A model generated the notes under the pieces. The model was not told the DNA's origin and did not search any database. It saw only the letters and a list, made by a program, of their open reading frames with translations. A program made the position numbers and the translations under genes. Positions 1,902 to 59,781 of a stretch of DNA of 64,000 nucleotides are shown piece after piece. Each line of letters starts with the position of its first letter. Positions within the stretch are counted from its first letter, which is position 1. The DNA comes from a virus. The stretch spans positions 11,249 to 75,248 of IMG/VR virus record IMGVR_UViG_3300021471_000007; one strand, 5' to 3'.

Positions 1902-1917
1902 TTTATATTCCTATTTA
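1902..1917 (+). promoter_or_regulatory. packaging-gene (late) promoter TTTATATTCCTATTTA
   Basis: 16/16 identical to the motif upstream of the portal; begins 30 nt before ATG 1932. Confidence 0.75.
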
Positions 1918-1931
1918 GCCAATATATATGT

Positions 1932-2465: not shown

Positions 2466-2496
2466 ATATTTCTTTTTAGGATAAATATGGAATTGT

Positions 2497-2516
2497 GAAG
2501 CGATAGCTTTATATAC
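2497..2516 (+). promoter_or_regulatory. archaeal BRE+TATA promoter GAAGCGATAGCTTTATATAC
   Basis: Exact 20-nt copy at 8554-8573; spacing to ATG 2537 fits a leaderless mRNA. Confidence 0.75.
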
Positions 2517-2536
2517 GATGGTACCCAAATAGTAAT

Positions 2537-19471: not shown

Positions 19472-19571
19472 AAGTAGCACACCTTAAAATTTTATATATT
19501 CATCAGCTACTTACATCTATCTTCAAATTCAATAATGACGCCTCACATAACAATCATCGGCATTCAGTCAC

Positions 19572-35227: not shown

Positions 35228-36190
35228 TTAATCTGCAGCTTTTAGTATAGCCAAAGCACCGACTTGCAATAAAGCTATAGCGAATTTCATGCTGAGATAA
35301 ATTCTCTTTTCGTTATAATCTATTCTATCTTCAACTGAAATGTCACCGTGTTTTGCCCATGCTATTGCTACTGGTCTTTTTGCTTTCATTAAATAAGCTG
35401 AATGACCATCAACTGCCCATACTTTGCCGTCTGTAGTATCGGTTGTACCTGATGTATAACCTTTGCATTGTGAAGTTGATATAACTTTAACACCAAGGTA
35501 TTTTCCTATTTCACCATTTAATACAACTTCGTTACTACCATATTCAGCAGCATTTACAAATTGACTGTCTTTCATTAAAGCTTCTTCCTGTTCAGGAGCT
35601 ATGAACAACACATATGGTTCGTCTTTTGTGTTGTAATAATTGTTGCTTCTTAAACCCCTTATTGCTTTTACTATCATATCAGTGTTGAATGTATCTGTTG
35701 CGCTCAATCCGCTAACATCACTAACTGAGCCAGGGTATATAACACCACCTGTTGCCAAACTGCCCTTAGTAGCACCTTCCAAAGCATCTCTTATAAGAGT
35801 ATCTACTCTTGTAGCTGCCCATTCTGCTAACTGCATTCTAGCAAATTTTAAAACATCAACTGCGTTCTCTTCGATTGCTTCGTATGAAATTCTAACAGCA
35901 TTCCTTCTGTATGTAGGAGTCAAAGTTGCACTTGATATTGAACCAGTCAAATCAGTGAAAGTTGCAACTGTGTTTTCTGCTGTAACTTCCTCACCAGAAA
36001 AGTCAACTGCACTAGAAATTGGAAGTTTGTAAGAATAAACTCCTTGTGGCATCTTAACCGGGAATGCAATTTGCTCGAACTTTCTAAGTGCTCTAGCTTC
36101 TTTTATAAGCTCTGCGCTCCACTGAGTTACTTTAGTATTAATGTCTGTAGATGAGGTTGGTCCTTCAGCAAGCATCTCTATTTTTCTCAT
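35228..36190 (-). CDS. major capsid protein (HK97 fold)
   Basis: WSAELIKEA, LFIAPEQEEAL, NGEIGKYLGVKVI; position after scaffold. Confidence 0.9.
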   Translation of the reverse strand: MRKIEMLAEGPTSSTDINTKVTQWSAELIKEARALRKFEQIAFPVKMPQGVYSYKLPISSAVDFSGEEVTAENTVATFTDLTGSISSATLTPTYRRNAVRISYEAIEENAVDVLKFARMQLAEWAATRVDTLIRDALEGATKGSLATGGVIYPGSVSDVSGLSATDTFNTDMIVKAIRGLRSNNYYNTKDEPYVLFIAPEQEEALMKDSQFVNAAEYGSNEVVLNGEIGKYLGVKVISTSQCKGYTSGTTDTTDGKVWAVDGHSAYLMKAKRPVAIAWAKHGDISVEDRIDYNEKRIYLSMKFAIALLQVGALAILKAAD

Positions 36191-37293
36191 TGATTAACAC
36201 CTCCTTTTAGTATCGACATAAAACTAGCATCTACATCAGAAGTACCTGCATATCTAACAGATTTTCTGGATGGTCTGCTAAGTTCCTCTATTTTCTTTGA
36301 TAATTCTTCTATTTTCTTATCTTTCTCTGCAACAATGGCAGAAAGTTCTGCTGTTTTTTCTTCTGATTGTTTCTTTATTATTGGTTCCTTCTCGTCATCC
36401 GGATATGGATATTTTTTCTTTTTGTTTTTCACATCTGGATATTTTTTGTCTTCTGGATAAGGATATTTCTTTTTCTTTAGTTCCTCAGCAACTATTTCAG
36501 AAACAAGCTCTCTTATTCTCTCTTCGCTTAATGGCTCTGTTTCAGGTTCTTCTTCGGTTGACTCAGGTTCTTCTTCCTCGAGTTCCTTTGTTTCCTCTTT
36601 TGGCTCATCCGTTTCTGGTTCTGTTTGTTCTTTTGTAGTCTCTTCTGCTGGTTGTTCCTCTTCTTCCTTGTCATCTTCCTGAAGATCTGCTAAGATCTCT
36701 TGTAATTGCTGTATGTCCTCACTGGTGAAGTCTTCTTTTTGTACAGCTTCTAGCTCAGTGAGCACGTCTTTCAGTGTTTTTTTATTTTCTTGCATTTCTA
36801 CACCTCCATATATTATTTTTTCAGTTTTACCTGTTGAACTGTTGTTTATATAAGCTGTTTTCACAGCTGGATCATAAACAACTGAAAAGTTCTCAAATCT
36901 AAAATCATTTATAACACCACGATCTTCATCAATTCGCAATCTTGGCGATATACCAAATTTTGCACCATACTTCAAATTTATCGCAGTCTGTAAATCAGTA
37001 ATATATAAATCACCAACTACATCATCACCTTCTAAATGTATGTTTTTGACGTCTCCAATCCATTTTGATGCTTCTGTATCCTTATGATCTAAGAACAATG
37101 AGCATACTTCATCATTAAAATCAGTATTCTTTAATGCATCTAATACCGTATCTCTAGAATAATATTTATTATTCCAAATACCCGGACTCATCAATATTTT
37201 ATTACGCAACACGAGTAAAGGTTTACCTTTACCAACAGCATCTAATAAATCAAATTTTGTTGCACTATTTAAAATACTACTATTTATTTTCAT
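36187..37293 (-). CDS. prohead protease fused to acidic scaffold
   Basis: PGIWN, LFLDH, GISP, FSVVYDPA; Glu-rich region with KKKKYPYP repeats. Confidence 0.75.
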   Translation of the reverse strand: MKINSSILNSATKFDLLDAVGKGKPLLVLRNKILMSPGIWNNKYYSRDTVLDALKNTDFNDEVCSLFLDHKDTEASKWIGDVKNIHLEGDDVVGDLYITDLQTAINLKYGAKFGISPRLRIDEDRGVINDFRFENFSVVYDPAVKTAYINNSSTGKTEKIIYGGVEMQENKKTLKDVLTELEAVQKEDFTSEDIQQLQEILADLQEDDKEEEEQPAEETTKEQTEPETDEPKEETKELEEEEPESTEEEPETEPLSEERIRELVSEIVAEELKKKKYPYPEDKKYPDVKNKKKKYPYPDDEKEPIIKKQSEEKTAELSAIVAEKDKKIEELSKKIEELSRPSRKSVRYAGTSDVDASFMSILKGGVNQ

Positions 37294-37504: not shown

Positions 37505-37813
37505 CTACAACGAAACTTCAACGAGATCAATGTAATCTCTGTTTACAACTTGTTTCGAATTCACCATTGCAATAACCTCTATTGAATATTGTCCTATTGT
37601 ATCATCCACAGCTGTCTCCCAATCATAATAAAATACCCCCTGTGACTCTCTAGTCATAGTCACCGAATCAACCTTTGTCGTACCAGTAGTTACATCGCGA
37701 ATTGTTATGGTAATTTTGTAATCCGTGTCCTGATCTGGATCAACAAGATTGTCGTTTATATCCCGCAAATAAACTTTTATTCTTGCGGTTTGTCCTCTTT
37801 CATATTCAGTCAT
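37505..37813 (-). CDS. Ig-like (BppU N-terminal-like) adaptor protein
   Basis: GQTARI...LVDPD...GVFYYDW...GQY pattern. Confidence 0.6.
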   Translation of the reverse strand: MTEYERGQTARIKVYLRDINDNLVDPDQDTDYKITITIRDVTTGTTKVDSVTMTRESQGVFYYDWETAVDDTIGQYSIEVIAMVNSKQVVNRDYIDLVEVSL

Positions 37814-37817
37814 ATAA

Positions 37818-40030: not shown

Positions 40031-40049
40031 TAGACCACCCTAAAAAATC

Positions 40050-40078
40050 AAAGGGAAGGGGGGCTAACCCCTCTTTTA
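40050..40078 (-). terminator. GC hairpin followed by U-rich tract
   Basis: Minus strand AGAGGGG-TTAG-CCCCCCTT...TTTGATTTTTT after the 878-aa gene. Confidence 0.45.
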
Positions 40079-40081
40079 ATT

Positions 40082-42718: not shown

Positions 42719-42722
42719 CTAA

Positions 42723-42932
42723 TCACCTCTTTTTCCTCTTTCTTTTAATTTTTTTGCTTTTAGTTTTTTTAACCTTAACTTCATTTTTTATTTCATCTAT
42801 CAATCCATTTCTTAATGCTACATGATATAACATCAATTCTGGATGATCCTTTGCTTCATTCTTATCAACTCTAACAACGTTTCCCTTCTTAAAATCTTCT
42901 GTATCAAATATTACATAATATGTCTTTTCCAT
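42723..42932 (-). CDS. small protein with highly basic tail
   Basis: SD GGAGGT; KKTKSKKIKRKRKKR. Confidence 0.55.
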   Translation of the reverse strand: MEKTYYVIFDTEDFKKGNVVRVDKNEAKDHPELMLYHVALRNGLIDEIKNEVKVKKTKSKKIKRKRKKR

Positions 42933-42945
42933 TGTTTCAACCTCC

Positions 42946-44538: not shown

Positions 44539-44884
44539 TCTTCCTCCTCCTGTCTTCCAATACTATTCCACAGGCAACCGCTCCAAATAAAGCAATCGAA
44601 CTGTCTGTATTTATTCTAACGGATTGTTTGTCTGGAAAATCGTGTTTTAAGTCCAACCCAGTTCTTCCAAATAAATAAATTGCATCATCCGGATGCTTGA
44701 AGTTTTCAAGTGAAATATCTCCGTTCTCATCAAATATTACAATATTCTTTGCATCAATCTCATTAATGTTATCAATCATTTTCAAATCAACACCATATGC
44801 TCTGCATGTCTGATCATATAAGCGATATTCTGTTCTTTTATTATCATACCAACCCTTTTCTCTAACAGCAACAACAGTAATCAT
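44516..44884 (-). CDS. minimal SPOUT-like methyltransferase
   Basis: SLENFKHP..AIYLFG..G...VRI....ALFGAVACGIVLEDR, resembling TrmL/SpoU knot motifs. Confidence 0.5.
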   Translation of the reverse strand: MITVVAVREKGWYDNKRTEYRLYDQTCRAYGVDLKMIDNINEIDAKNIVIFDENGDISLENFKHPDDAIYLFGRTGLDLKHDFPDKQSVRINTDSSIALFGAVACGIVLEDRRRKNVSHDNK

Positions 44885-44889
44885 TTATA

Positions 44890-45117
44890 TCACAATTTTA
44901 TCATAGGATTTAATTCTTTAAACTCATCTAGCGGATACCATTCCTTCCATTCTGATCTACCAACAGATTTCGGAATTATTTTAACTTCAACAAATTTAAC
45001 AGTAATTGTCTCACCTTCCTTTGCATTTGGTCCGATTGCAGGCACCTTATGTTTTATTACTTTCAAAGAAGTTGGATCAATTTCTCTTTCTTTGTGGTTT
45101 ATATCAATTATTATCAT
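44890..45117 (-). CDS. hypothetical protein
   Basis: SD GAGGTG. Confidence 0.6.
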   Translation of the reverse strand: MIIIDINHKEREIDPTSLKVIKHKVPAIGPNAKEGETITVKFVEVKIIPKSVGRSEWKEWYPLDEFKELNPMIKL

Positions 45118-45126
45118 TTAAACACC

Positions 45127-47625: not shown

Positions 47626-50600
47626 TTAGCTCACCGCCTGCATATCGATATCTACATTCGGATTACCAGAAACATAACTACAATTTGCATACAACCAAAC
47701 GTTCTTTTCCTCACTAGCAGCAACATCATTCCAAAGTGTCTGCCAAGAATTGGATAGTAAAATACAGTTGGACGATGTTTTTGGATCTGTGCTAGATGCA
47801 TTACAAGACCAAAGTTTCCAACCATCGGCTAATGTGCCGATATACTCTATCTGGAAATCTCCTGTTGCAGTACCATTGTTCGTTGCATTTATTATTCCAT
47901 GAGTATCTGTTTGGTATTGTGGTTCACTTGGATAATATTCCCAATCTGGAGAACAGTTTACAAACATAATTCTTGTTGCACCAGTATTCGAATTTATCGA
48001 ATATTCTATGTCTGGTGCTCCAGGGTTTTGACTAATCTCCTCTGCTATTGGATGATAATCGGTATTGTCTATATCTAATATATATGCATCATCACAGAAA
48101 CCATCAGAATTTGTATCCTTACAATTATCAGATTCGCTATATCCGCTTCCATCTGGTTTAAACCAAGCATTGCCCCAAATGTATCCTAAACTATCATTCC
48201 AAATGTTTGTTCCTGTTTGATAAGAAGTATTCCAATCATTTGCATATACTGTTCCAACAAAACCAAAACTATCTGTGTTATTAAGTATGTTATTATAAAT
48301 TGTATTTGAACCAGCACCTTTATATAAATAAATACCACAATATGAATTATCTTGTAGTTTTGAATCTTTTATAATATTAAAATCAGAACTATATAGATAT
48401 AACCCATATGTATTTGAATTGGATGTGATATCAGTTAAATTATTAGAATCAGAGCTATAAAAATACAATCCATAGCTATTATAATCGGTTGTAATATTAG
48501 TTAAGTTGTTATAATCTGAGGAACCATATAAATATAAACCAGCAGCACTGTTTGAATTTGATGTAATATTAAACAAGCTGTTAGAATCAGAATGTAATAT
48601 ATGTAAACCATTGTGGTTGGAATTTGCTGTGATGTTAGTTATTATATTAGAATTAGCATTATCGAGACAAATTCCACCAGCATTCCAATCTGTAACAACA
48701 CAATTTTTTATAGTTATATTTGTATTAGTTGATGAATCTCTATAAACATAAATTCCATACTCGGTCGTGTCATTTCCATCAATCGTATGATGTTTGCAAT
48801 CAAAAATAATATTATTAGCACTTATGTTTATGCAAGGTGTAGTTGATGAATCCGTTATATTATTATCCAAATAATAAATGCCACCGTCTACATTTAAATT
48901 AGAACAATCTGTTAAATGTGGATTGTATGTCGTTTCAAAACTATAAACATCTGAGGCATTCCAATTGTCGTTACTATCATTTGCATATACTTTCCAAGCA
49001 ATTGTTGCTCCTACTGTCGAATTTACAACTTTCGTAACGTTTGACCAATTCATTGTTCCTGACATTGATACCCAAGAGTCATTCATCCAATTATCTTTTA
49101 CTATTTTCCAATATATTTTTTCTTCATATATTTTAGCACCATCCTCATCACCTTCTCCAATAGGAACTGTGGATACCCAACTCGAACCATTCCAACATTG
49201 TGCATCAAAAGTTGTTCCAAATGCACTTATATATATTCTTAACTGCAAAATATTTTGATTCCAGCAATCGCCTAAAGTATAATTTAAAGGATATGCACCA
49301 CCCTCATCTGATATTACTTCCCATCGAGTTTCATTTATGGCTCCGTTGGGAACAGTATAATTTACATAAGCATAGGTATCAGAGAACGCATCCGATTGTG
49401 TTGAATATGTTATATCATTACCATCATACCAATTATTGTTATCGAGATTTGTAGAAGAATAACTTCCTGTTCCTAATCCACCACAATCTGTGGACTCGTT
49501 TGCAAATTCTTGATAGCAAATTATATTCTGAAATCCGCAACTTGTCCCATTCCAAGTCCCATTACAAAAGCTGAAGATGTATCCAGATAACCCAACATTA
49601 TCATTCCATTTTAGCCTGTGTTCAACTGGTGTTCCCGCTAATGTTGAATTCGTAGAATTGTCTGAATATGTTGGAGGCATTTTTTCAGTTATTCCAATTT
49701 CTTTAGCTATTGGATGATAATCTATGTTATCGCTTGATAATTCATAAGAATTGTCGCAGAAACCATCGTTGTTATTATCATTACAAGTATATTCACTAAA
49801 TCCCGTTCCATCTGGCTTAAACCATGCGTTTCCCCATATATATCCTAAACTACTATTCCAGATGTTCGTTCCAGATTGATATGATGTGCTATAATTATTA
49901 TAGTAATTCGGTGCTCCATTATAATTGGCTGTGTTATTAAATAAGTTGTTATATATTTTGTTTGGGTCATTATATCCTGCTGTGTCTTTGACTCTTATAC
50001 CGTATTGATTAGAATTCTTAATTACACAATCCTTAATAATATTATTTGAAACATAGCTTTGGAGTTTTATTCCGTTTCCGTTGTTATCGAGAGTTATATC
50101 TGATATTTCATTATATTTTGAATTTGAACCCTCTAAAATTACCCCAGCATGACTATTCCAAGTATCTCCCGAAGAAGTTCCTTTAATTGTTGAATTCTTT
50201 AATATACCATATCCAGCGTAATAAATAAGAATTCCATAATCCCCTCCATCGGATATAACATCAGATATGTTAAAATAATCACACCATGCTACCTGAATTC
50301 CAGATGTATCCGAAATATTGACATCATAAATTGTAACATTATCAGCGTAATATACATCTATAGCTCTTCTATACCAATCACTTATGCTACAATTTTTTAT
50401 TGTTACATTAGCTGTTTCTTTTGAGCTTCTGGAAATTTTAATCCCATAATCACCAGCCCATCCCTTTCCATCTATCGTAAATCCTTTGCAATCAAAGGTT
50501 ACATTATTAGCTGTTATATCCATACAATAACTTGTAGACGAATCTGTTATATTGTTAGCCAAATAATAAATACCGTTTGGAATATCTAACACAGAACAAT

Positions 50601-52332
50601 CCGTAATGGTTATATTAGATATATTTATATATGTCACATTTAAATATGGCCTATCTGCGGTTGTTGAATATTCTTTTGAATAAAGATCGATATACCAATA
50701 ACTTCCATAATTAAAATCCGGTGTAGCATTCATTACAAAGCTTACATTATCTTTTCCAGAATCATATTCGGAGTCAACCCAACTAGTCACATTAAAACCA
50801 TGGAACGTTCCTAACTTATCATATGTTGCATTAAGAGTAGTTTTTGATATAAGACTGCCAATATCAGAACTCATGTTGGATTGATTCCACCATATATCAT
50901 CTTCGTTCCATGTCTGGTTATCTAATTCATATATAGTAATGTTTTCAACACCAGCTTCAAGTCCATTGTCTTTGAGATATAACATAGCATTTGTCACCGG
51001 GCCACCTATAGAGCTAATATTAAATTTTATATATATCATTCTGTAAGCATCTGTTCCATCATGCGCTAAACCAAGTATACTGTTGCTTCCATATTGTATA
51101 TCTTGTTGTTTAATTGTCCCAACATCTTCCAAATTTTCAGTATTGGCTTCTTGTAACTTAACCGTAGGATCTAAATACAAATTTCCGTTTTCGATATTAT
51201 TTGTGATGTTTCCTATTAATATTCTTCTGTTTGTTAAATCTAAATCGACTGTATACTTGTTAAGCAGGTCATCAAAGTATAATCCCATTTTTTTAACAAC
51301 AAATCTCTTTTTTGCACCCTTTAAATCATTTAATGAAAAACCATAGTGCTCTTTATATGTCAATGTAATAAAATCAATGTTTGGTTGTATATCAGCAGAT
51401 ATGTTTGAAATGTTTACCGCATATTTCCAATATGTCTGATGTTTTTCTGTTGGAAACGATATTGACATTTCTGGATGTGATTGCATAACATTGTTAAATG
51501 AATGATAATTACCATTATAAATAACTCCGGCTTCAAATGTTATGTTATAATATTCATCCTTGCCATTATAATGAAATGTTATATCGTCTCCATTTTTTGT
51601 TATGTAAAAAACATCTGAAGCATTTATCCATTTACCATTATTGTCTTGAGCATACATAACACCAGAGTATATAGTTCTAGAACATTCTTGAACCGTTATG
51701 TTATTCCATCTACAAACCTCACCGTATCCACCACTACAATAAATAGTTCCGTTTTCATAGGAATCCCAATCTAAACATTGATTATTACATATATATTTTG
51801 ATTTTAGAACGGGGTGACAAACCTCATCCCAATCTTTTCCGTATTTTTTTATAGCATTACTAATTCCATACCAATATGGATCTATGTCTCCAAAACTCCA
51901 TTTGATATCTTGATGAGGATTAAATTTATAACCAACAAATCTTATCTGATAATTTTTTCCTTTGCTAAATTTAACTGCATATTTAACTTTAGAATTCCAT
52001 GTTTTATTTAAATAAATAGTTCTCCAAGAGTCACCCCAACTACGCTGCAATATAACTTCTTTGATTGGTGGTGTTGTACTAAACGTCCAATTCTGATTAG
52101 GATAAATATAAATGTCAGTATTTGCTGTGAAATTGATATAAGCATAACAAGGATCCTCTTCTGTTCCTGCACAAGTCATATTCCCCGAGTAACCTGTTAC
52201 AGTAATGTCACCACGTTGCATGAGTAACATAAATAAAATGAAAATAGGTATGCCTACTGCACCAATCTTCTTCATATATCTTTTGATTGTGTCATAGTAG
52301 ACACGCCTATACTTTACCATGTCTTTTACCAA
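47626..52332 (-). CDS. giant surface glycoprotein (TM, DNRLRE/CBM96, two NosD/CASH beta-helices, Ig-like)
   Basis: N-terminal TM; YIKFNIS..TWNED..YSKE..RPYLNVTY; duplicated ITDCS..NNITD..WGNAWFKPDG..DGFCD modules. Confidence 0.75.
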   Translation of the reverse strand: MVKDMVKYRRVYYDTIKRYMKKIGAVGIPIFILFMLLMQRGDITVTGYSGNMTCAGTEEDPCYAYINFTANTDIYIYPNQNWTFSTTPPIKEVILQRSWGDSWRTIYLNKTWNSKVKYAVKFSKGKNYQIRFVGYKFNPHQDIKWSFGDIDPYWYGISNAIKKYGKDWDEVCHPVLKSKYICNNQCLDWDSYENGTIYCSGGYGEVCRWNNITVQECSRTIYSGVMYAQDNNGKWINASDVFYITKNGDDITFHYNGKDEYYNITFEAGVIYNGNYHSFNNVMQSHPEMSISFPTEKHQTYWKYAVNISNISADIQPNIDFITLTYKEHYGFSLNDLKGAKKRFVVKKMGLYFDDLLNKYTVDLDLTNRRILIGNITNNIENGNLYLDPTVKLQEANTENLEDVGTIKQQDIQYGSNSILGLAHDGTDAYRMIYIKFNISSIGGPVTNAMLYLKDNGLEAGVENITIYELDNQTWNEDDIWWNQSNMSSDIGSLISKTTLNATYDKLGTFHGFNVTSWVDSEYDSGKDNVSFVMNATPDFNYGSYWYIDLYSKEYSTTADRPYLNVTYINISNITITDCSVLDIPNGIYYLANNITDSSTSYCMDITANNVTFDCKGFTIDGKGWAGDYGIKISRSSKETANVTIKNCSISDWYRRAIDVYYADNVTIYDVNISDTSGIQVAWCDYFNISDVISDGGDYGILIYYAGYGILKNSTIKGTSSGDTWNSHAGVILEGSNSKYNEISDITLDNNGNGIKLQSYVSNNIIKDCVIKNSNQYGIRVKDTAGYNDPNKIYNNLFNNTANYNGAPNYYNNYSTSYQSGTNIWNSSLGYIWGNAWFKPDGTGFSEYTCNDNNNDGFCDNSYELSSDNIDYHPIAKEIGITEKMPPTYSDNSTNSTLAGTPVEHRLKWNDNVGLSGYIFSFCNGTWNGTSCGFQNIICYQEFANESTDCGGLGTGSYSSTNLDNNNWYDGNDITYSTQSDAFSDTYAYVNYTVPNGAINETRWEVISDEGGAYPLNYTLGDCWNQNILQLRIYISAFGTTFDAQCWNGSSWVSTVPIGEGDEDGAKIYEEKIYWKIVKDNWMNDSWVSMSGTMNWSNVTKVVNSTVGATIAWKVYANDSNDNWNASDVYSFETTYNPHLTDCSNLNVDGGIYYLDNNITDSSTTPCINISANNIIFDCKHHTIDGNDTTEYGIYVYRDSSTNTNITIKNCVVTDWNAGGICLDNANSNIITNITANSNHNGLHILHSDSNSLFNITSNSNSAAGLYLYGSSDYNNLTNITTDYNSYGLYFYSSDSNNLTDITSNSNTYGLYLYSSDFNIIKDSKLQDNSYCGIYLYKGAGSNTIYNNILNNTDSFGFVGTVYANDWNTSYQTGTNIWNDSLGYIWGNAWFKPDGSGYSESDNCKDTNSDGFCDDAYILDIDNTDYHPIAEEISQNPGAPDIEYSINSNTGATRIMFVNCSPDWEYYPSEPQYQTDTHGIINATNNGTATGDFQIEYIGTLADGWKLWSCNASSTDPKTSSNCILLSNSWQTLWNDVAASEEKNVWLYANCSYVSGNPNVDIDMQAVS

Positions 52333-53047
52333 ATGTCATTTTTTTGCCTGTGAGTTTGTTCCATGTGTCACGGGTCTGCATTTGCAACGTTGCCGCTTGA
52401 TATAACAAATGATTTATGTGCCACAAACCAACTGTCTTATAGTGTTCACAAATGTGTTTCACGGAAACATAGATCTTAAACTTGTTCTTTTTTACCTTTT
52501 GCGAAAACGAATAATCCTCGCTATATGCTATGTCTCCCCAATCGTTATATTGGAACCTAAACCAGTTTGATTTTATTTTTTCTAAAACATCGCGTCTTAT
52601 AACAATACACCCGCATCCAACACCATCAACTTCAATCAGACCGTCTTTATCTACTTCATTGTTTATTTCAGACAGGTTTACCATTGTATACATTTTTTTG
52701 CTATTCATTTTCATTACAAGCGGATGTGGTATGCCATTTTGCATTCCCATAACGGTTGCACTCACAACAGGCTTATTAAGCTTTATTATATCCAAAATAT
52801 TATCTGGCGGCACATTATCTGAATCAATCATAACCAGCCATTTGTTTTGTTTATCTTCCAAAAAGTTTTTAACTATTCTGTTCCTGTTTGCATCCACCGG
52901 GTTCTTGAAACTAAAGCTAATCTTCAGATCATATCCACGCGGAGCTTTCAGATTAGTCAAAAACCTGGCCAATTTCAATGAAATCTCGCTGTTGTGCGGA
53001 CCTATGGTCGGTATAGCTACCACTATTACATCTTTCTTCTTCTTCAT
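52307..53047 (-). CDS. GT-A fold glycosyltransferase
   Basis: VAIPT, NRNRIV, MIDSD, GCGCIVIRR, SEDYSF, EH. Confidence 0.85.
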   Translation of the reverse strand: MKKKKDVIVVAIPTIGPHNSEISLKLARFLTNLKAPRGYDLKISFSFKNPVDANRNRIVKNFLEDKQNKWLVMIDSDNVPPDNILDIIKLNKPVVSATVMGMQNGIPHPLVMKMNSKKMYTMVNLSEINNEVDKDGLIEVDGVGCGCIVIRRDVLEKIKSNWFRFQYNDWGDIAYSEDYSFSQKVKKNKFKIYVSVKHICEHYKTVGLWHINHLLYQAATLQMQTRDTWNKLTGKKMTFGKRHGKV

Positions 53048-53065
53048 CTACATTACACCTCATTC

Positions 53066-53536
53066 TTAGTCAACATCCAATTTCCAAGTTATCTCAAGCG
53101 AATCTCCAGATTCAACATTTATGTCGCTTATATACTGTGCACAAAGCATGTCTCCACCGCTACTTGAATTAAACACACCACTTTCGTTTATAGTTTTGGT
53201 TGCACTAAAAGTAAATGTGTGCACAAACTTAGAAGTATCACCAGTAGTATCAGTGGTATCAGTGCTTGTTGTTGCAGTATCTCTTGAATCTTCTGTATTT
53301 AATTCTGTGTCTGAAGCAGCGAATGCTTGTGTAGCACCTGTTCCTATGGCTATGTTGCTAAATGCGGTCCCAGATCCTATTATAAGTTCAGCCACTTCTG
53401 CTTTTCCTGCATTAACTACTATGTTACCAACGTTCAATCTCTCCATTTTCAATTTTCCGGTGCTGTCTCTTAATCTGTAGTCCACTTTACCAGACAATCC
53501 AACTTTTGTTTTCTTGTTGTATTTGTCAAATTTCAT
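53066..53536 (-). CDS. fibre base/structural protein (tail-collar DUF3751-like)
   Basis: VVNAGK, IAIGTG, SDTEL..E..R, INESGVFN..SGG.ML. Confidence 0.6.
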   Translation of the reverse strand: MKFDKYNKKTKVGLSGKVDYRLRDSTGKLKMERLNVGNIVVNAGKAEVAELIIGSGTAFSNIAIGTGATQAFAASDTELNTEDSRDTATTSTDTTDTTGDTSKFVHTFTFSATKTINESGVFNSSSGGDMLCAQYISDINVESGDSLEITWKLDVD

Positions 53537-53719
53537 TTATTTTTTCACCTCATTTTTCTTTTCAATATTAGTTTTTACTCCAACGCCCTTTATACGAGTT
53601 CGAGTAAACGATTCTTTTATGTTACCATTCTTATCCTTCAAAACTAACATCAATCCACCCCTTCCGTTCTTATCAAATTCGGGTTTTTTTAATACATCTT
53701 TATATATAACCATATTCAC
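53537..53719 (-). CDS. small hypothetical protein
   Basis: Coupled; LVLKDKNGNIK resembles the N-terminus of the next gene. Confidence 0.5.
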   Translation of the reverse strand: MNMVIYKDVLKKPEFDKNGRGGLMLVLKDKNGNIKESFTRTRIKGVGVKTNIEKKNEVKK

Positions 53720-56700
53720 ACCTTCTTTTTATCTATCCAATAAGGAAGATTACTCTGATCTTTTAATTTATAAAATAACCATACATGTCTATCTCCAATA
53801 TGTGCAATGCTAACCTCAAAACGACCTTCAATCGGAAGACTTCTTTTCGGGAAATCAGGAGATTCTCTCGGTCTTCGTGCTTCTTTCGGAGGATTAATTT
53901 TAAAATCATTAGAATGCATTAAAAATATCATACGATGATCCTCAATAACTTCTGGTAAATAAATACCATTATCTACAATTGTAAATATACCAGGAAAATG
54001 TTTTGTTGAACCTGGTGCACCGATTGGTGCTACGCCTTGTACTTTTAACCATGCTTTTGGTTGTATAAGCTTATCTACTGTATTGTATTTTTTATATGCT
54101 AATTTTTTCTTTGTAAATGGATTTGGTTGAGTTATATTTGCTGGTTCTGTTATTGTAAATCCCTGTAAATGATCACCAACATCCATTCTTAAATCAGTAT
54201 GGTTTGTTGCACCGCGTTCATGCCATTGCATAACAAATTTTCGTGGCACTCCACGTTCCATTACACGTTTAAAATCGTCCTGTTTTTGTTTTGGAAAAAC
54301 AGCAGGGGTTTGGTCTAATAAAAACTCTGGTCTCTTATCCCAGAATGGAGCAGATACAAATGCTTCAAGAACTTGATCTATCATTCCCATGTGTTTTGCA
54401 TCTTTTATGTCTTGTTCTAATGTATCACCGTATTCTACAATTGCAACTCCCAAAGCATCTACAGCTCTTTCCAATTCACGCCTGTTTGATGTACTGTGTA
54501 AATCCGGCCTCTTTGTATCAACACGTGGTTTGTGTATCGAATATCGTATACCGTTTTTATATTCGTGTCTCCAGACTTCCTGTACACTAATGTCTATTAT
54601 ATCACCTGGTGATGCATTGAGTTTAGTGTTAAATGTTTTTCCCAGTTTTAATATTGTTTTTCCATTAAGATGTACAATATACTTCTGAAGATATATATCA
54701 GGATTCTTAACATCAATGCCAACAGTATAATTATTAGCAGAACCGGCTTTATGTTTTTCTAATACTCTAACGTGTAGAGTCGTGAGCTTTCTGTATTTAA
54801 GCCATGTTGTACTGTCACCAGAAACGTATTTTGCGTCTGTTTCTTTTACAACAGCACCCTCACTCTCTTTTATCTTGCTAACTTGTTTTATATATTTAAG
54901 TGCATCTTTTGGGTTGTCTGCTTTGTATGATTTTATTTTCATAACAGTATCATTAAAATGTAACTTATCTAAATATTTTTTACGTTCTTCCAATGGCAAA
55001 TCCTTCAGGTTTTTGCCGTTATATCTTATTATATCCCATACAACTAATCTAATATTAGAATCATCTGGAGTTTCACCGCCCTTCTGTACAAACGGTAATA
55101 AGTTTATACGACTGCCCCATTTTCCATTGTCATACCATAACATTTCACCATCGATTCTGAAATCAGTGCCAAGCTTGCTCAAAGCAGATTTAAAATGATT
55201 AAGACTTTTTGATATATTGCTGCCATCTTCTGTTATAACTTGTACATCGCCATTAGCTTTGTCTACACTAATATGAAAACCATCCCATTTCCTTTCAACG
55301 TACCACGATTTTGCTTTTTTGAACATTGCATCAACAAGATCCTTCATATCATAATATGCGTTTGGGTTTGGTTTCTGTGGTCTCATTGCAGACATTTGTA
55401 CTACACGCGGCTCTCTCTTTTTAAGCACCAGATCATACAAAGGAACAAACGTATCGTGTGGACCCGGTTCATCACCCCATATGAAATGCAATTTTCCTGC
55501 TAATTCAGGATATTCCTCGTTTAGCATCTTTATCATTCTGGTTTCAACAGCACGTCTTATAAAACTTGTTGGTTCAGCCATTCTTATTAATACATCAATG
55601 TCGTTACCCAATCTATTATTTTCTATTGTACTACCAACTAATGATACAAATGAATCGTTAATAACTATATCTGTAAAACTATCTATAAAAGATATGTCCT
55701 GAGACATCTCTTCAGATTGTAAATGTGGAGGATTGGGCGTTAAAGGTGTGTTGTGTTGAAAGCCCCTTTTTTTCATTTCAGCAACCACAAACTTATGTGC
55801 ATTCCAAATGTCTTCCGCATTCCAACCGTTCTTCAATGAATAATCCTTTTTCTTCTTCAACGTAGAATACCATGCATGCAAAATCCTATGATCATCTATA
55901 AGAACCTTATCTGGTAAATCAGGTATTGATTTAATATAATCCTTGTATGGTTTATTTAACAGTTCTTCAATGAATCTGAATTCATTTAATATTATAAATT
56001 TTTCTTCTGGTAAAATTGCCTGTTTTGGTTCATCGTATGGAACAAAATCAAAATCAAACATATAACTTTCGCCAATTGTCTCGGGTTCATATAAAAATAT
56101 TGTTCCGTATGCATATTCATCATCAAACAAATACATTTCCTTGCCAACAAAGTCATCGAGTGTAGAAGGTAATATGAGTTCTTTTTGCTCACCGCTATAT
56201 ATTTTATTTGCATCTGCATTGTACAAACCATATGATAATTTCTTAGGCGTATCTAACAATTCATTTATGCTGACAGACAAACCATCAAATGCTATGTTAA
56301 ACTTTGAATCTATAGATTTAAGCTCTCTAACAGCATCTTTCCATCTTGGTACGTTTATACCTATATTAGTAAAAAATATAAGTTTGTTATTTAATTTTAA
56401 TAACTTTTTTTTGCTTTTTAAAATTGAGTTGTGTGTTTTGCTTTTGCCATCCCACAATGAACCATCCCATATAATGACATCTGCCTTTTCAATTAATTCT
56501 CTTGATTTCTGAGACATTGTTGATGAAGAAGGAGCCGATGTAAAAGGACAATAAAACACTGATCCTACATCATTTTTTAATATGAAACCAACATTTGGTA
56601 TTTTGTCTGGAGTATCAGAATAAGGCATTGTGACAGGAATTACTTTAAGATTTCCAATTTCATATTCTTTATATGGCTCGATAAATTTAAAATCAAAACT

Positions 56701-57057
56701 ATTTAATGCGTCCTTATCAAACATTTCTGATATTCTATTGTAAGTTTCCTTTTCTAAATAAACGTTTGTCTTTGCATCATCTTCTGCTAATTGATTTAAC
56801 CTTGCCAGACCACCAACTGTTTCATCTGATGCATGTGTAATTAGTATATTATTAATATTATCAATATTGTGAACCGCTATTTGCTTTTCAACATCTCTTG
56901 TAACATCTATTAATAAACATTCATCACTTATAAATAAAGAAGATTGTAATCTTTTGTCCCTCGAATACGCCCTTTCAGCGCTTTTAGATGCAGGTGTATT
57001 AGCACCTTCTCTCGGTATTCTACCAGCTGGACCAGTACCAATAAAAACTAAATTCAT
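53716..57057 (-). CDS. multidomain ATP-dependent DNA ligase (MBL-fold, ASCH-like, DenV-like, NTase, ligase+OB, LigD-type 3'-phosphoesterase)
   Basis: ERKWDG, IDGEM, VWDI, EGAVVK, WLKYRK; GS...DIDVLI; FVMQWH.....HTDLR. Confidence 0.85.
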   Translation of the reverse strand: MNLVFIGTGPAGRIPREGANTPASKSAERAYSRDKRLQSSLFISDECLLIDVTRDVEKQIAVHNIDNINNILITHASDETVGGLARLNQLAEDDAKTNVYLEKETYNRISEMFDKDALNSFDFKFIEPYKEYEIGNLKVIPVTMPYSDTPDKIPNVGFILKNDVGSVFYCPFTSAPSSSTMSQKSRELIEKADVIIWDGSLWDGKSKTHNSILKSKKKLLKLNNKLIFFTNIGINVPRWKDAVRELKSIDSKFNIAFDGLSVSINELLDTPKKLSYGLYNADANKIYSGEQKELILPSTLDDFVGKEMYLFDDEYAYGTIFLYEPETIGESYMFDFDFVPYDEPKQAILPEEKFIILNEFRFIEELLNKPYKDYIKSIPDLPDKVLIDDHRILHAWYSTLKKKKDYSLKNGWNAEDIWNAHKFVVAEMKKRGFQHNTPLTPNPPHLQSEEMSQDISFIDSFTDIVINDSFVSLVGSTIENNRLGNDIDVLIRMAEPTSFIRRAVETRMIKMLNEEYPELAGKLHFIWGDEPGPHDTFVPLYDLVLKKREPRVVQMSAMRPQKPNPNAYYDMKDLVDAMFKKAKSWYVERKWDGFHISVDKANGDVQVITEDGSNISKSLNHFKSALSKLGTDFRIDGEMLWYDNGKWGSRINLLPFVQKGGETPDDSNIRLVVWDIIRYNGKNLKDLPLEERKKYLDKLHFNDTVMKIKSYKADNPKDALKYIKQVSKIKESEGAVVKETDAKYVSGDSTTWLKYRKLTTLHVRVLEKHKAGSANNYTVGIDVKNPDIYLQKYIVHLNGKTILKLGKTFNTKLNASPGDIIDISVQEVWRHEYKNGIRYSIHKPRVDTKRPDLHSTSNRRELERAVDALGVAIVEYGDTLEQDIKDAKHMGMIDQVLEAFVSAPFWDKRPEFLLDQTPAVFPKQKQDDFKRVMERGVPRKFVMQWHERGATNHTDLRMDVGDHLQGFTITEPANITQPNPFTKKKLAYKKYNTVDKLIQPKAWLKVQGVAPIGAPGSTKHFPGIFTIVDNGIYLPEVIEDHRMIFLMHSNDFKINPPKEARRPRESPDFPKRSLPIEGRFEVSIAHIGDRHVWLFYKLKDQSNLPYWIDKKKV

Positions 57058-58274
57058 TTTTTCTCCACCGGAACTTGTGTGTTTTCTTTTGGAGGCAGAT
57101 TCTCTGATTTTCGTATCATGTTCTCGAGCGTATCATCCATTGTTATAAGGTGTGAATTAACATATGATTTTATTCTGTCCATCTTTTGAGGATCTTGCCA
57201 AACCATTTTTGGAACCTTAGAGAATTTTCTCTCAAGTGCTATCGGTTTGAAAATATGATCTTCTATTTCATTTGAGATTCTCTTTTGTAACATCAATATG
57301 TTTCTTCTAAACAAATCATCCTGCTTCTCAAGGGTTGCTTTATTTGTATCCTCGCTTATGCCAGTAACATATGCTTTTGGTACACCCATTCCTGCTATTA
57401 TTAGATCCATGAAATATTCCAATGATATCTGCATTTTTTCTGGATTTTTTGATTCTAAATATTGTAAATCTACCCATTCCGGTATGGAAATAGAATCACT
57501 TGCTTCCATATTCTTAAGTTGCAAATCCATCCAATCTATGTCAGCTTGCGTTGCTGGTCTCTGTGGTGTCCCGCATTTTGCTATTATAATCGGATAACCT
57601 CTTCTAAACACAGCTTCACCAAGACCATTTTCAATGTTCATTTTGACTTCTATTGTATTATATAATGGTTCTATCAGCCCAATTCCATCAAGTGAATCAC
57701 CAACTGTGAAAAACCTGAAATGTACTATTTCATCAGTTTCAAAACGTATTGCTGGTTTTCCCATTTGTGTTACCAGTCTGCTTTGATCAATTGCAGATGT
57801 ATCAAAACCAAATGGAAGATATTGTACATAACCTTCTGGGCTACCGTCTTGTTTGTATTTTATTCGACCAACACTGTCTCTTACAAAATCCATTGATTTT
57901 GGATCAATCAAATCTAACGATATTATTTCAGTGCCAGCCTTATTACGTATGAGTTCAACATAAGAATTACCATAAATAGCCAGTTCCTGAACTATTTTTT
58001 GTAGAATTAGTCTAAAATCACAATCTTGCATAAACTGCTTCATTTCTGCTTCTTCCTTTTCATTACCACATTCCAATCCAAAATCATATGTAAGAAATTC
58101 TTGAACAATTTTATTAATAGCATTAAAAACCAAACCATCTCTAACATAAATCAATTCTAACTTTCTTCTGTCTATGCGCACAAGTTCTTGAGGGAGTCTT
58201 TTTGAAATTGGTTTCGATGCCTTTGCTTTAACATCCTTCAGAAAAACCGATGCAATCCTAGAAGTTAAACTCAT
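57054..58274 (-). CDS. portal protein
   Basis: After TerL; IYGNSYVE, EIVHFRF...DGIGLIEP, GMGVP. Confidence 0.9.
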   Translation of the reverse strand: MSLTSRIASVFLKDVKAKASKPISKRLPQELVRIDRRKLELIYVRDGLVFNAINKIVQEFLTYDFGLECGNEKEEAEMKQFMQDCDFRLILQKIVQELAIYGNSYVELIRNKAGTEIISLDLIDPKSMDFVRDSVGRIKYKQDGSPEGYVQYLPFGFDTSAIDQSRLVTQMGKPAIRFETDEIVHFRFFTVGDSLDGIGLIEPLYNTIEVKMNIENGLGEAVFRRGYPIIIAKCGTPQRPATQADIDWMDLQLKNMEASDSISIPEWVDLQYLESKNPEKMQISLEYFMDLIIAGMGVPKAYVTGISEDTNKATLEKQDDLFRRNILMLQKRISNEIEDHIFKPIALERKFSKVPKMVWQDPQKMDRIKSYVNSHLITMDDTLENMIRKSENLPPKENTQVPVEKK

Positions 58275-58313: not shown

Positions 58314-59762
58314 TCAATTATACTTGGAAGCAGGTAATTTCATCCTTTTGTGTGACGCAATATAACGTACACCAGAACTATATGTTGTACCAGCATGCAA
58401 TGCCAAAGCTAATGAATCAACACAATCGTCGTGTTTAGCAACAGAAACATAGTTGTTAAACGATGATTTCTTATCTATTATTATATGAGAAAGTTCTTTT
58501 ATAAGTTGATCTGTTATAGAAACGGTGTTTGCATCTTCCTGATTTCTTGGTATTGTAACAGCACCGCTGTTTATCAAATTGATCATGTTTGAGTATATTT
58601 CCTTTTTATTTTTTGGTGCAAACACAAAGCCAGTTACAGGCATTCCTTTTGCTTGCATCTCTGATACAAACGTTACACCAAAATTAGATGCATCTGCAAG
58701 TATTTTGATCGGTTGGAATTTTTGATTTAAATCATACAATTTTCCTATTTGTTCTTTCCAATATACTCCACGCATACGCTCTATTTTTAATACTTCAAAT
58801 GTATCTTGTTTCTTTTCGACAACAGTAAATACTGTCCAGTCACCAACAGGAGATATAGCAAAATCTGCACCTATAAATATTTTTCTTTCTTTATTTTGAT
58901 TGTCAATATGATCAACAAATGATTTTTCAGGATCAAAGCATTTTACTATGTTTGTCAGCGGTATTGGACTCGTTTCATCAGCAACTATCTTTAATAGATA
59001 TTCTCTGTTAAAATCAGCAACACCCATTTCTTCTTTTGCTTCTTCCAACATTGATAACGGAAGTCCTTCTGGAAACAATGGTTCACCGTTTTTTCCGATT
59101 GCAGGGTATTCTTTATAAACAAACTTCGGATTCTCTTTGAATTTCTGCAACAAATCAACTAACGTTAATGGAGTTCCTATGCCAATTAAATGACCACCAA
59201 GACGCTTTATCGTAGGAGAAACCGCAGAATTGTATAAATGTACATCTTGATATAATGAAACTTCATCTAAAATGGCCCAATTAACATGCAAGGTTCTCAC
59301 CGAATTGCTAAACGGTTTGCAACGCATAGAACATCCTGTAGATGTATTTAATAATGTTTTTGTCCAAGACAAATTCTGAGTAGTTGGTTTTAAAACTCCC
59401 AAAATTTCATTGCCCTCTATATAATTTCTAACCTGACTTAAAAGATATTTCGAGTTTTGTAAATTATTTGATATAACAAGAAACTTTTCATACTTATGAA
59501 ACAACATTCTCCATAATGGAAAGTAAACACTAAGAACAGAAGTTTTCCCAGAGCCACGGCATGCTGCTATACAAGAAAGTTTGTTATTGATAAACATGTT
59601 AACCCATTCTTCATGAAAGGGTTTTATTATTATTTGTTTACCATCATTATTATATTTCAGAATATTTTCGCAGAAATATTTAAAATCCATCCTTGCTTTT
59701 AACATGAGTTCTTCATATGTTTCAGAATCAGATTCTTCCAATATTTGTCTTCGTGATAACAT
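58314..59762 (-). CDS. terL: terminase large subunit
   Basis: RGSGKT Walker A, AILDE Walker B, IGTP, IGADFA, HDDCVDSLAL; start refined to ATG 59762 (track 59780). Confidence 0.95.
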   Translation of the reverse strand: MLSRRQILEESDSETYEELMLKARMDFKYFCENILKYNNDGKQIIIKPFHEEWVNMFINNKLSCIAACRGSGKTSVLSVYFPLWRMLFHKYEKFLVISNNLQNSKYLLSQVRNYIEGNEILGVLKPTTQNLSWTKTLLNTSTGCSMRCKPFSNSVRTLHVNWAILDEVSLYQDVHLYNSAVSPTIKRLGGHLIGIGTPLTLVDLLQKFKENPKFVYKEYPAIGKNGEPLFPEGLPLSMLEEAKEEMGVADFNREYLLKIVADETSPIPLTNIVKCFDPEKSFVDHIDNQNKERKIFIGADFAISPVGDWTVFTVVEKKQDTFEVLKIERMRGVYWKEQIGKLYDLNQKFQPIKILADASNFGVTFVSEMQAKGMPVTGFVFAPKNKKEIYSNMINLINSGAVTIPRNQEDANTVSITDQLIKELSHIIIDKKSSFNNYVSVAKHDDCVDSLALALHAGTTYSSGVRYIASHKRMKLPASKYN

Positions 59763-59781
59763 ATATATATTATATGTCAAT

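What the first reader, a model, noticed from the sequence alone, without database searches (positions are those of the whole stretch)
53716..57057. Multidomain DNA end-healing/sealing enzyme encoded directly after the portal
Seen, in order along one 1113-aa ORF coupled to the portal: (i) a PhnP-like metallo-beta-lactamase fold with a degenerate metal motif (THASDET for HxHxDH); (ii) an ASCH/PUA-like segment (~aa 270-360); (iii) a segment matching T4 endonuclease V/pyrimidine-dimer glycosylase (LPDKVLIDDHRILH...HKFVVAEMKKRGFQHNTP), with the catalytic Glu position read as Ile; (iv) a Pol-beta-type nucleotidyltransferase (LVGS...GNDIDVLI); (v) an intact ATP-dependent ligase (KWDG and motifs III-V) with OB domain; (vi) a LigD-type 3'-phosphoesterase (QWH.....HTDLR). 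Known: ligase + PE + polymerase is the LigD NHEJ architecture, and the slot after the portal usually holds a packaged or ejected minor head protein (MuF/SPP1 gp7). Inference: a virion-packaged, Ku-independent repair machine that circularises or repairs the incoming genome or counters host nucleases, with dead domains retained as nucleic-acid sensors.
Basis: partly seen in the sequence, partly recalled or inferred. Interest (0 to 1): 0.88.

Follow-up and report, generated by a model that had tools for sequence, protein, structure and literature searches.

The report
Head-module viral DNA end-repair polyprotein
Right after its portal gene, a probably archaeal tailed virus from hydrothermal sediments encodes one 1113-residue protein that joins a DNA ligase, a LigD-type DNA-end-cleaning enzyme and a small nucleotide-adding enzyme to three probably non-catalytic modules; it looks like a DNA first-aid kit built into the head-assembly genes, but loading into the virus particle is untested.

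Summary
The ORF is real. It lies at window 53716-57057 on the MINUS strand, is 1113 aa long, and its ATG overlaps the portal stop codon (ATGA).

Five of the six claimed domains hold up:
- MBL: a PhnP-like metallo-beta-lactamase fold with a degenerate metal motif.
- ASCH: supported by fold (Z 8.4-9.0).
- NTase: a minimal Pol-beta-type nucleotidyltransferase with invariant G475, S476, D486 and D488.
- Ligase: an intact ATP-dependent ligase of LigD type (K590).
- PE: a divergent LigD 3'-phosphoesterase. A family profile hits PDB 3P43 at E=2e-9. Foldseek's top seven hits are all PE structures.

The sixth claim, an endonuclease V/Pyr_excise match, is only a sub-threshold Pfam hit on a short helical module. 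It lacks the catalytic features.

The gene order TerL-portal-this protein-(g368)-capsid protein recurs in 17 of 18 related IMG/VR contigs. Portal followed by ligase also occurs in the archaeal virus ANMV-1. At least 10 of 151 family representatives end in an XkdF-type prohead protease domain.

Best reading: a LigD-like, Ku-less DNA-end repair enzyme of the "polyvalent protein" kind, probably loaded into the capsid. Loading is inferred, not shown.

I found no published description. Earlier notes of this scan describe the same family in at least 16 other genomes.

The parts
53716..57057 (-). Whole 1113-aa ORF (P0001). Its start overlaps the portal stop codon (ATGA).
   Evidence: In three other metagenome runs, 8 of 9 SNPs are synonymous and there are no indels.
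56263..57057 (-). Residues 1-265: PhnP-like metallo-beta-lactamase fold with a degenerate metal site (H-A-S-D-E-T). Probably a pseudo-enzyme.
   Evidence: Pfam Lactamase_B_2 6e-8; NCBIfam PRK02113 4e-14 and PhnP 7e-9; PDB 6B9V 1.9e-4. Motif comparison in A3.
55975..56244 (-). Residues ~272-361: ASCH / PUA-like beta-barrel.
   Evidence: AF2 pLDDT >90. VIA Z 9.0 (6KIR, rmsd 2.3 over 86 residues), 8.6 (5Y7D), 8.5 (8YFI), 8.4 (1WK2). Pfam ASCH hits 3 relatives at ~1e-3.
55738..55959 (-). Residues ~367-440: three-helix module with a sub-threshold Pyr_excise match. It is conserved (L386, R391, E415 invariant) and duplicated in some relatives.
   Evidence: Pfam 20.5 bits against a cut-off of 23 when scanned alone. 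No support. Second copies occur in P0003, P0005 and L008.
55414..55695 (-). Residues ~455-548: minimal Pol-beta-type nucleotidyltransferase (G475, S476, D486, D488, D542).
   Evidence: Invariant columns. 1NO5 Z 5.3. 7AE9_H Foldseek probability 0.87. The Atlas's nearest named clusters carry NTP_transf_2/Polbeta (a lead only).
54787..55392 (-). Residues ~556-757: adenylation domain of an ATP-dependent DNA ligase. Motif I is K590 (KWDG); motif IV is EGAVVK; motif V is WLKYRK.
   Evidence: Pfam DNA_ligase_A_M 2.7e-20. The best NCBIfam model is the NHEJ ligase domain TIGR02779 at 2.5e-25. PDB Lig3 and Mtb LigD.
54448..54786 (-). Residues ~758-870: conserved beta-rich region in the OB-domain position of the ligase.
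   Evidence: Conserved block in A3. NCBIfam PRK09125 aligns through residue 817. Not folded here.
53758..54297 (-). Residues ~921-1100: divergent LigD-type 3'-phosphoesterase barrel. H946, H953, D955 and R957 are intact. Gln999 and Trp1003 replace His84 and Tyr88 of the Pseudomonas enzyme.
   Evidence: Profile A1 hits 3P43 at 2.3e-9 and 3P4H at 2.5e-8. The AF2 model has pLDDT 86. Foldseek's top 7 hits are all PE structures, best E=7.5e-7 with TM 0.84.
57054..58274 (-). Portal protein, translationally coupled upstream gene.
   Evidence: Pfam Phage_portal 6.8e-16; phrog_9232 5e-31.
58314..59780 (-). Terminase large subunit.
   Evidence: Terminase_6C 3.8e-13; phrog_38 1.8e-46.
36187..37293 (-). 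g368: head-module protein that directly follows the repair protein in most relatives (probable protease/scaffold). Here it lies beyond a 16-kb fibre cassette.
   Evidence: Homologues stand directly downstream in 13-14 loci. Its N-domain is fused to the C-terminus of P0111 (E=4e-5). It has no Pfam hit.
35228..36190 (-). Major capsid protein.
   Evidence: Pfam Phage_capsid_4 2.2e-8.

Best explanation
The ORF encodes a modular DNA-end repair enzyme of a tailed, probably archaeal, virus. It works like bacterial ligase D without Ku.

Proposed roles of the modules:
- The C-terminal phosphoesterase cleans blocked 3' ends (3'-phosphate or 3'-ribonucleotides).
- The small Pol-beta-type nucleotidyltransferase adds nucleotides to 3' ends.
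- The ATP-dependent ligase seals the break.
- The ASCH barrel and the helical module most likely hold nucleic acid.
- The N-terminal MBL has lost its metal ligands in this virus and is probably structural. It is intact in many relatives, where it may act as a phosphodiesterase.

The gene is a conserved member of the head-assembly operon, between the portal and the protease/scaffold and capsid genes. Relatives are repeatedly fused to the prohead protease. So the protein is probably made late, incorporated into the procapsid like other polyvalent or internal head proteins, and available to repair or protect the genome at entry or at packaging.

What is shown: the domain identities, the conserved catalytic residues, the synteny and the fusions. 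What is inferred: the enzyme activities, the DNA substrate, capsid loading and delivery into the host.
For: Domains.

Catalytic residues invariant across 42 relatives: G475, D486, D488 in the NTase; K590, E638, E733, G734, K754 in the ligase; H946, H953, D955, R957 in the PE.

Family size and architecture. The PE query finds 205 representatives at E<=1e-3. Of the 151 that also match P0001, 70 carry the ligase, 49 the NTase and 14 the MBL.

Synteny. A portal homologue stands directly upstream in 17 of 18 IMG/VR loci, with TerL before it and g368-like plus MCP genes after. In ANMV-1 a distant portal (24% identity, mis-annotated) is directly followed by NTase-Lig-OB-PE.

Fusions. An XkdF protease domain forms the C-terminus of P0099 (Pfam 1.4e-17) and of 9 further representatives. 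The g368 N-domain is fused to P0111 (4e-5). Dam-type methylase inserts occur in 6 of 42 relatives, and a UDG domain in one, as in anti-restriction polyvalent proteins (PMC5512222).

Genome content. This is the only ligase in the genome. No Ku and no family-B polymerase were detected.

Selection. 8 of 9 natural SNPs are synonymous.
Against: There is no direct evidence of virion incorporation. The protein has no MuF or known capsid-targeting domain.

In this virus the prohead-protease-like gene is 16 kb away and is not fused.

Most syntenic loci belong to one viral lineage (TerL E 1e-47 to 1e-88), so the synteny could be inherited rather than selected.

The PE has Gln and Trp where cellular PEs have His84 and Tyr88. 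From memory, both are important for activity in the Pseudomonas enzyme, so its chemistry may differ.

The closest relative, L017, lacks Lig-OB-PE altogether, and P0002 lacks NTase-Lig-OB. The full set is therefore dispensable.

There is no 5'-kinase, so 5'-OH ends could not be sealed.
Confidence: 0.55

Rival explanations
1. A late-expressed but non-packaged repair enzyme. It heals and seals nicks and broken ends in replicated or concatemeric viral DNA just before or during packaging at the portal, as T4 needs its ligase for encapsidation (recalled from memory). It never enters the capsid.
For: Translational coupling to the portal and a position next to the terminase. It is the only ligase in the genome. 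Nothing shown here distinguishes packaging-time action from delivery.
Against: Recurrent C-terminal fusion to the prohead protease puts relatives inside the procapsid rather than outside at the packaging motor. Methylase and UDG inserts fit protection of incoming DNA better.
Confidence: 0.27
2. An RNA (for example tRNA) end-healing and sealing enzyme that counters host ribonuclease toxins. It would be analogous to T4 Pnkp plus Rnl1, with the NTase rebuilding 3' ends.
For: Pfam RNA_ligase also hits, at its cut-off (27 bits). PhnP-like MBLs and PE domains act on cyclic or 3'-phosphate ends (established knowledge). P0006 carries a 2H/LigT phosphoesterase instead. ASCH domains often bind RNA.
Against: The DNA-ligase model scores far higher (73 against 27 bits), and the best NCBIfam model is the NHEJ ligase domain. 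There is no 5'-kinase anywhere in the protein. The MBL is dead here. The fusions are to DNA methylase and UDG.
Confidence: 0.08
3. An ordinary replicative (Okazaki-fragment) ligase that happens to be fused to accessory domains and to sit in the head operon.
For: It is the only ligase in the genome.
Against: No viral DNA polymerase was detected. It is LigD-like rather than replicative-ligase-like and lacks an N-terminal DNA-binding domain. Its position between portal and capsid genes is conserved. The ligase module is absent from the closest relative, L017.
Confidence: 0.05

Closest known systems
Bacterial DNA ligase D (LigD; LIG + PE + POL, partner of Ku in NHEJ) and the stand-alone archaeal PE proteins (PDB 3N9B, 3P43, 3P4H, 5DMP)
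   Same: An ATP-dependent ligase domain whose best-scoring family is the NHEJ ligase, fused to a PE barrel with the His-His-Asp-Arg site, plus a nucleotide-adding module in the same polypeptide.
   Different: - The polymerase is a ~100-aa minimal Pol-beta-type NTase, not the archaeo-eukaryotic primase-polymerase.
- The PE is at the C-terminus and has Gln/Trp in place of His84/Tyr88.
- No Ku is present.
- There are extra MBL, ASCH and helical modules.
- It is viral and encoded in the head module.
Polyvalent proteins of phages and conjugative elements (Iyer, Burroughs, Anand, de Souza, Aravind 2017, PMC5512222); P1 Dar and T4 internal proteins as packaged anti-restriction cargo (from memory)
   Same: Many effector domains in one polypeptide. 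The domains are shuffled between relatives. The genes are encoded beside portal/virion genes of terminase-portal phages. Relatives carry DNA methylases and a head-protease domain.
   Different: That paper describes no ATP-dependent DNA ligase or LigD-PE modules (text search), and it notes a paucity of polyvalent proteins in archaea. There is no MuF domain here. Packaging is untested.
ANMV-1 (ANME-1 archaeal virus, KP703175.1) 'ATP-dependent DNA ligase' AJP62006.1
   Same: NTase-Lig-OB-PE (24% identity over residues 439-1029), directly downstream of the portal gene.
   Different: It is 866 aa and lacks the MBL and ASCH modules. It was deposited simply as a ligase, and its portal was annotated 'MutT-like hydrolase'.
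Mycobacteriophages Corndog and Omega, which encode Ku and use host LigD to circularise their genomes (from memory; not read here)
   Same: A phage exploiting NHEJ-type end joining for its own genome.
   Different: Those phages bring Ku and borrow the host ligase. This virus brings the ligase, PE and NTase, and no Ku.

Membership tests
LigD 3'-phosphoesterase (PE) superfamily | PE beta-barrel fold as in 3N9B/3P43 | tested here: met
   The AF2 model has pLDDT 86. The seven best Foldseek hits are all PE structures (3P43 E=7.5e-7, TM 0.84; 3N9B 2.9e-6). The next hit is at E=0.1.
LigD 3'-phosphoesterase (PE) superfamily | Metal site His-x(n)-His-x-Asp-x-Arg (His42, His48, Asp50, Arg52 in the Pseudomonas enzyme) | tested here: met
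   H946, H953, D955 and R957 are invariant in 42 relatives and align to the PDB motif.
LigD 3'-phosphoesterase (PE) superfamily | Phosphate-contacting His84 and Tyr88 (EDHP..Y) | tested here: not met
   They align to Gln999 and Trp1003 (motif K..QP..WL), conserved across the viral clade. H1041 and H1086 are conserved instead. I could not inspect their positions in the model.
LigD 3'-phosphoesterase (PE) superfamily | Pfam LigD_N gathering score (31.1 bits) | tested here: not met
   No hit on this protein at E<=1 or in the genome at E<=10. Nine of 20 relatives hit below the cut-off, best 1.6e-6.
ATP-dependent DNA ligase (covalent nucleotidyltransferase) | Motifs I (KxDG), III, IIIa, IV and V | tested here: met
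   Pfam 73.4 bits against a cut-off of 26.2. K590, G593, E638, D675, E733, G734 and K754 are invariant.
ATP-dependent DNA ligase (covalent nucleotidyltransferase) | C-terminal OB domain | tested here: inconclusive
   There is no Pfam DNA_ligase_A_C hit. NCBIfam PRK09125 aligns through residue 817. A conserved beta-rich block spans 760-850. Not folded here.
Bacterial LigD (full enzyme) | Archaeo-eukaryotic primase-polymerase (LigD_Prim-Pol) domain, and a Ku partner | tested here: not met
   No Prim-Pol hit. Pfam Ku is absent from the 75-kb genome.
Pol-beta-type nucleotidyltransferase superfamily (minimal NTase/MNT) | hG[GS]x9-13Dh[DE]h motif plus a third carboxylate | tested here: met
   LVGS476-x9-D486-I-D488-V. 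G475, S476, D486, D488 and D542 are invariant.
Pol-beta-type nucleotidyltransferase superfamily (minimal NTase/MNT) | NTase alpha/beta fold or a Pfam model | tested here: inconclusive
   1NO5 Z 5.3, rmsd 3.2 over 72 residues. 7AE9_H probability 0.87, E=0.18. NTP_transf_2 hits only one relative, at 2e-5, and DUF6932 hits 3. The domain was not folded alone.
ASCH (PUA-like) domain | ASCH beta-barrel fold | tested here: met
   Z 9.0, 8.6, 8.5, 8.4 and 7.8 to five ASCH structures, each covering the whole domain. Pfam ASCH hits only 3 relatives, at ~1e-3.
Pyr_excise / T4 endonuclease V | Pfam gathering score (23 bits) | tested here: not met
   12.7 bits in the whole protein and 20.5 bits when scanned alone. 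The relative P0005 reaches 23.8.
Pyr_excise / T4 endonuclease V | Free N-terminal amine nucleophile and Glu23 | tested here: not met
   The module is internal. The Glu23 position is Ile392, and Ile/Leu in relatives.
Pyr_excise / T4 endonuclease V | endoV fold, or profile similarity to T4 denV | tested here: inconclusive
   hhalign probability 0.5%. No PDB profile hit. Fold lists show only generic helical hairpins.
Metallo-beta-lactamase superfamily (PhnP-like) | Pfam model over its cut-off | tested here: met
   Lactamase_B_2 scores 32.9 against 27.
Metallo-beta-lactamase superfamily (PhnP-like) | HxHxDH and downstream His/Asp metal ligands | tested here: not met
   The motif reads H-A-S-D-E-T. 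The VxHS His reads Tyr, and the ED Asp is lost. Relatives keep HxHxD.
Polyvalent proteins (Iyer et al. 2017) | Several unrelated effector domains in one phage protein encoded beside portal/virion genes | tested here: met
Polyvalent proteins (Iyer et al. 2017) | Packaged in the capsid and delivered with the DNA | not testable with these tools
   The only evidence is circumstantial: synteny and protease fusions.

The most novel reading that the evidence does not exclude
Tailed viruses of archaea (and related phages) load a self-sufficient, Ku-independent end-joining and end-healing machine into the capsid, next to the portal, and inject it with the genome. The machine comprises a ligase, a variant PE and a minimal NTase standing in for the LigD polymerase. 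It would reseal or circularise the incoming DNA and blunt host nucleases. This would be the first DNA-repair cargo among virion-delivered polyvalent proteins.
Probability: 0.35. Interest if true: 0.85.

Novelty: new variant of a known kind. Interest (0 to 1): 0.7.

Why it matters
If the protein is packaged, viruses would be shown to carry DNA-repair enzymes, and not only anti-restriction binders or methylases, into the cell. That would be a new layer in virus-host conflict.

It would also extend polyvalent proteins to archaeal viruses, where they were reported to be scarce.

Biochemically, the protein offers a natural LigD analogue in which a 100-residue Pol-beta NTase replaces the primase-polymerase. 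It also offers a PE clade with a rewired phosphate pocket. Both are directly testable with recombinant protein.

The compact ligase/PE/NTase core could be of practical interest as an end-repair reagent.

Tried and rejected
Genomic contexts of the metagenomic homologues (P-ids) could not be fetched, so synteny rests on IMG/VR loci and ANMV-1.
- The search for related loci with the single protein found nothing in viral contigs. Alignment A2 was too divergent to make search patterns.
- Genome contigs gave only one 6.4-kb MAG contig, binned as Aminicenantes. It is no use for host assignment.
- A PDB profile search with the helical module found nothing above chance. hhalign against T4 denV was negative.
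- g368 against the HRTV-27 prohead protease showed no similarity. Calling g368 a protease remains a guess.
- [LI]xE motifs as possible maturation-cleavage sites: 3 lie in linkers against 1.9 expected. Not significant.
- No RNA holder was listed among the public runs, so nothing can be said about expression.
- Literature searches for a prior description of portal-adjacent ligase/PE proteins found none. Subscription journals are not covered.
- I did not run complex prediction, because I do not claim a specific binding partner.


Full report
THE OBJECT

The reported coordinates hold one open frame of 1113 codons, but on the minus strand. Its ATG overlaps the stop codon of the upstream gene (…GGTGGAGAAAAAATGA…). 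That upstream gene is a portal protein (Pfam Phage_portal 6.8e-16, phrog_9232 5e-31) and is preceded by the large terminase.

The window is the right-hand 64 kb of a 75,248-bp viral contig. The contig carries a ~188-bp terminal direct repeat.

Near-identical DNA occurs in four hydrothermal-vent, marine or sediment metagenome runs. One of them may be the source sample. In the other three there are no indels in the ORF, and 8 of 9 SNPs are synonymous.

DOMAINS

(i) MBL, residues 1-265. This is a PhnP-like MBL: Lactamase_B_2 at 32.9 bits, PRK02113 at 4e-14, PhnP at 7e-9, and PDB 6B9V. Alignment with 16 architecture-sharing relatives shows that many keep HxHxD (THAHSDA). This protein reads THASDET and has also lost the later His and Asp ligands. 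It is a dead enzyme here.

(ii) ASCH, residues 272-361. I folded residues 265-560 with a 30-row alignment (mean pLDDT 86). This segment forms a barrel that matches ASCH structures over its whole length: 6KIR at Z 9.0, 5Y7D at 8.6, TRIP4 ASCH bound to DNA at 8.5, and 1WK2 at 8.4.

(iii) Helical module, residues 367-440. These are three helices.
- Pfam Pyr_excise is the top hit, but it stays below threshold: 12.7 bits in context and 20.5 bits alone, against a cut-off of 23.
- One relative reaches 23.8 bits.
- A PDB profile search, hhalign against T4 denV, and two structure searches give no support.
- The catalytic Glu position is Ile, and the module is internal, so it has no free N-terminal amine.
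I therefore treat it as a conserved helical module, possibly nucleic-acid binding, and not as a glycosylase.

(iv) NTase, residues 455-548. The segment carries the Pol-beta NTase signature (GS476-x9-D486-I-D488), and D542 is a candidate third carboxylate. All of these residues are invariant in 42 relatives. Fold support is modest: 1NO5 at Z 5.3 and the MNT antitoxin at probability 0.87. One relative hits NTP_transf_2 at 2e-5.

(v) Ligase, residues 556-757. This is an ATP-dependent ligase (73 bits) with motifs I-V. The best NCBIfam model is the NHEJ (LigD) ligase domain. The OB region that follows is conserved but was not tested by fold.

(vi) PE, residues 921-1100.
- Pfam LigD_N does not hit this protein.
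- phmmer of the segment against 1.84 billion representatives finds 205 relatives.
- A profile of 20 short relatives hits the archaeal PE structures 3P43 (2.3e-9) and 3P4H (2.5e-8).
- The AF2 model (pLDDT 86) retrieves all seven PE entries as its top Foldseek hits, and nothing else below E=0.1.
- The His-His-Asp-Arg site is invariant.
- The His84 and Tyr88 equivalents are Gln999 and Trp1003 throughout the clade.

THE FAMILY

Of 151 representatives that carry this PE type and also match P0001, 70 also carry the ligase, 49 the NTase, 36 the helical module, 14 the MBL and 13 the ASCH barrel. Eight have all seven modules in the same order.

Modules come and go between relatives:
- P0002 (51-68% identical) is MBL-ASCH-helical-PE.
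- The closest virus, L017, has only MBL-ASCH-helical-NTase.
- L010 and L015 split the protein into two ORFs, L015 between the NTase and the ligase.
- Six of 42 relatives insert a Dam-type methylase.
- One relative carries UDG and one an AAA ATPase.

CONTEXT

In 17 of 18 related IMG/VR contigs a portal homologue stands directly upstream, and TerL stands before that. In 13-14 of them, homologues of window genes g368 and g320 follow directly. g320 is the major capsid protein (Phage_capsid_4 2.2e-8).

In this window a 16-kb fibre/glycosyltransferase cassette is inserted between the ORF and g368.

In the deposited archaeal virus ANMV-1, the gene annotated 'MutT-like hydrolase' is a portal (Phage_portal_3 3.2e-22). 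It is directly followed by an 866-aa NTase-Lig-OB-PE protein. That portal is only 24% identical to the one here.

In cultured haloarchaeal relatives the order is TerL, portal, a small hypothetical gene, then prohead protease, further head genes and the MCP. The repair protein therefore occupies the slot between the portal and the protease.

At least ten representatives end in an XkdF-type prohead protease domain (Pfam 1.4e-17 on P0099). One ends in the g368 N-domain (4e-5).

The genome has no second ligase, no Ku and no detectable family-B polymerase.

An archaeal host is plausible but not proven:
- 40 of 45 deposited relatives of the portal are haloarchaeal viruses.
- The best capsid-protein hit is an Altiarchaeum virus.
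- A PriX domain is present in the window.

READING

The three conserved catalytic modules reproduce the activities of LigD: end cleaning, nucleotide addition and sealing. They do so with a different nucleotide-adding fold and without Ku.

The conserved place in the head operon, the protease fusions and the methylase inserts match the logic of polyvalent proteins (PMC5512222). That paper, however, does not describe ligase or PE modules, and it notes few polyvalent proteins in archaea.

Capsid loading is the most economical explanation of the fusions, but it is inferred. The main rival is a late, unpackaged enzyme that mends DNA at packaging. RNA repair and replicative roles fit less well: there is no kinase, the ligase is LigD-like, it is fused to DNA-modifying domains, and it is dispensable in the closest relative.

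PRIOR NOTES

Earlier notes of this scan describe the same family in at least 16 other genomes and read it the same way. My tests were run independently on this window and agree with them. I found no publication describing the family.

Noticed in passing
L001 (KP703175.1) 1913-3193: The ANMV-1 CDS annotated 'MutT-like phage hydrolase' is a portal protein (Pfam Phage_portal_3, E=3.2e-22). The adjacent 'ATP-dependent DNA ligase' is an NTase-Lig-OB-PE fusion.
   Followed up: yes
window 37505-53536 (-): A ~16-kb cassette separates the repair gene from g368 and the MCP, which are adjacent to it in most relatives. The cassette holds a glycosyltransferase, a 1568-aa NosD/beta-helix protein and large fibre-like proteins. 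Only L017 shares it (g530 at 1e-256, g878 at E=0).
   Followed up: partly
G000:C1 1-189 and 75061-75248 (outside and at the end of the window): The contig ends repeat each other over ~188 bp, with a one-base slip in a T run. IMG/VR classes the record as linear and CheckV gives 73% completeness. The genome may in fact be complete.
   Followed up: partly
window 36187-37293 (-): g368 has an N-terminal ~140-aa domain and an acidic coiled-coil tail, which looks scaffold-like. The N-domain recurs at the C-terminus of family member P0111 (E=4e-5) and weakly in P0003 (E=0.017). It has no Pfam or PHROG hit.
   Followed up: partly
L017 4454-6337; P0002: The closest related virus has a 627-aa post-portal protein that stops after the NTase (no ligase, OB or PE). 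Another close relative (690 aa) joins the MBL-ASCH-helical part directly to the PE. Whole blocks of modules are gained and lost between near relatives.
   Followed up: partly
window 2806-3825 (+): A 339-aa protein with a PriX (archaeal primase X) domain (E=3.9e-9). This is one of the hints that the host is an archaeon.
   Followed up: no
window 53537-53719 (-): A 60-codon ORF starts inside the stop region of the repair gene (GTGTGA overlap, or an ATG 8 nt later). The 156-aa gene follows immediately, so the operon is tightly packed. The small ORF was not examined.
   Followed up: no
window 17681-19480 (-): A 599-aa protein with a LAGLIDADG_3 domain (E=1.9e-7). It may be an intein or a homing endonuclease within a larger gene.
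   Followed up: no
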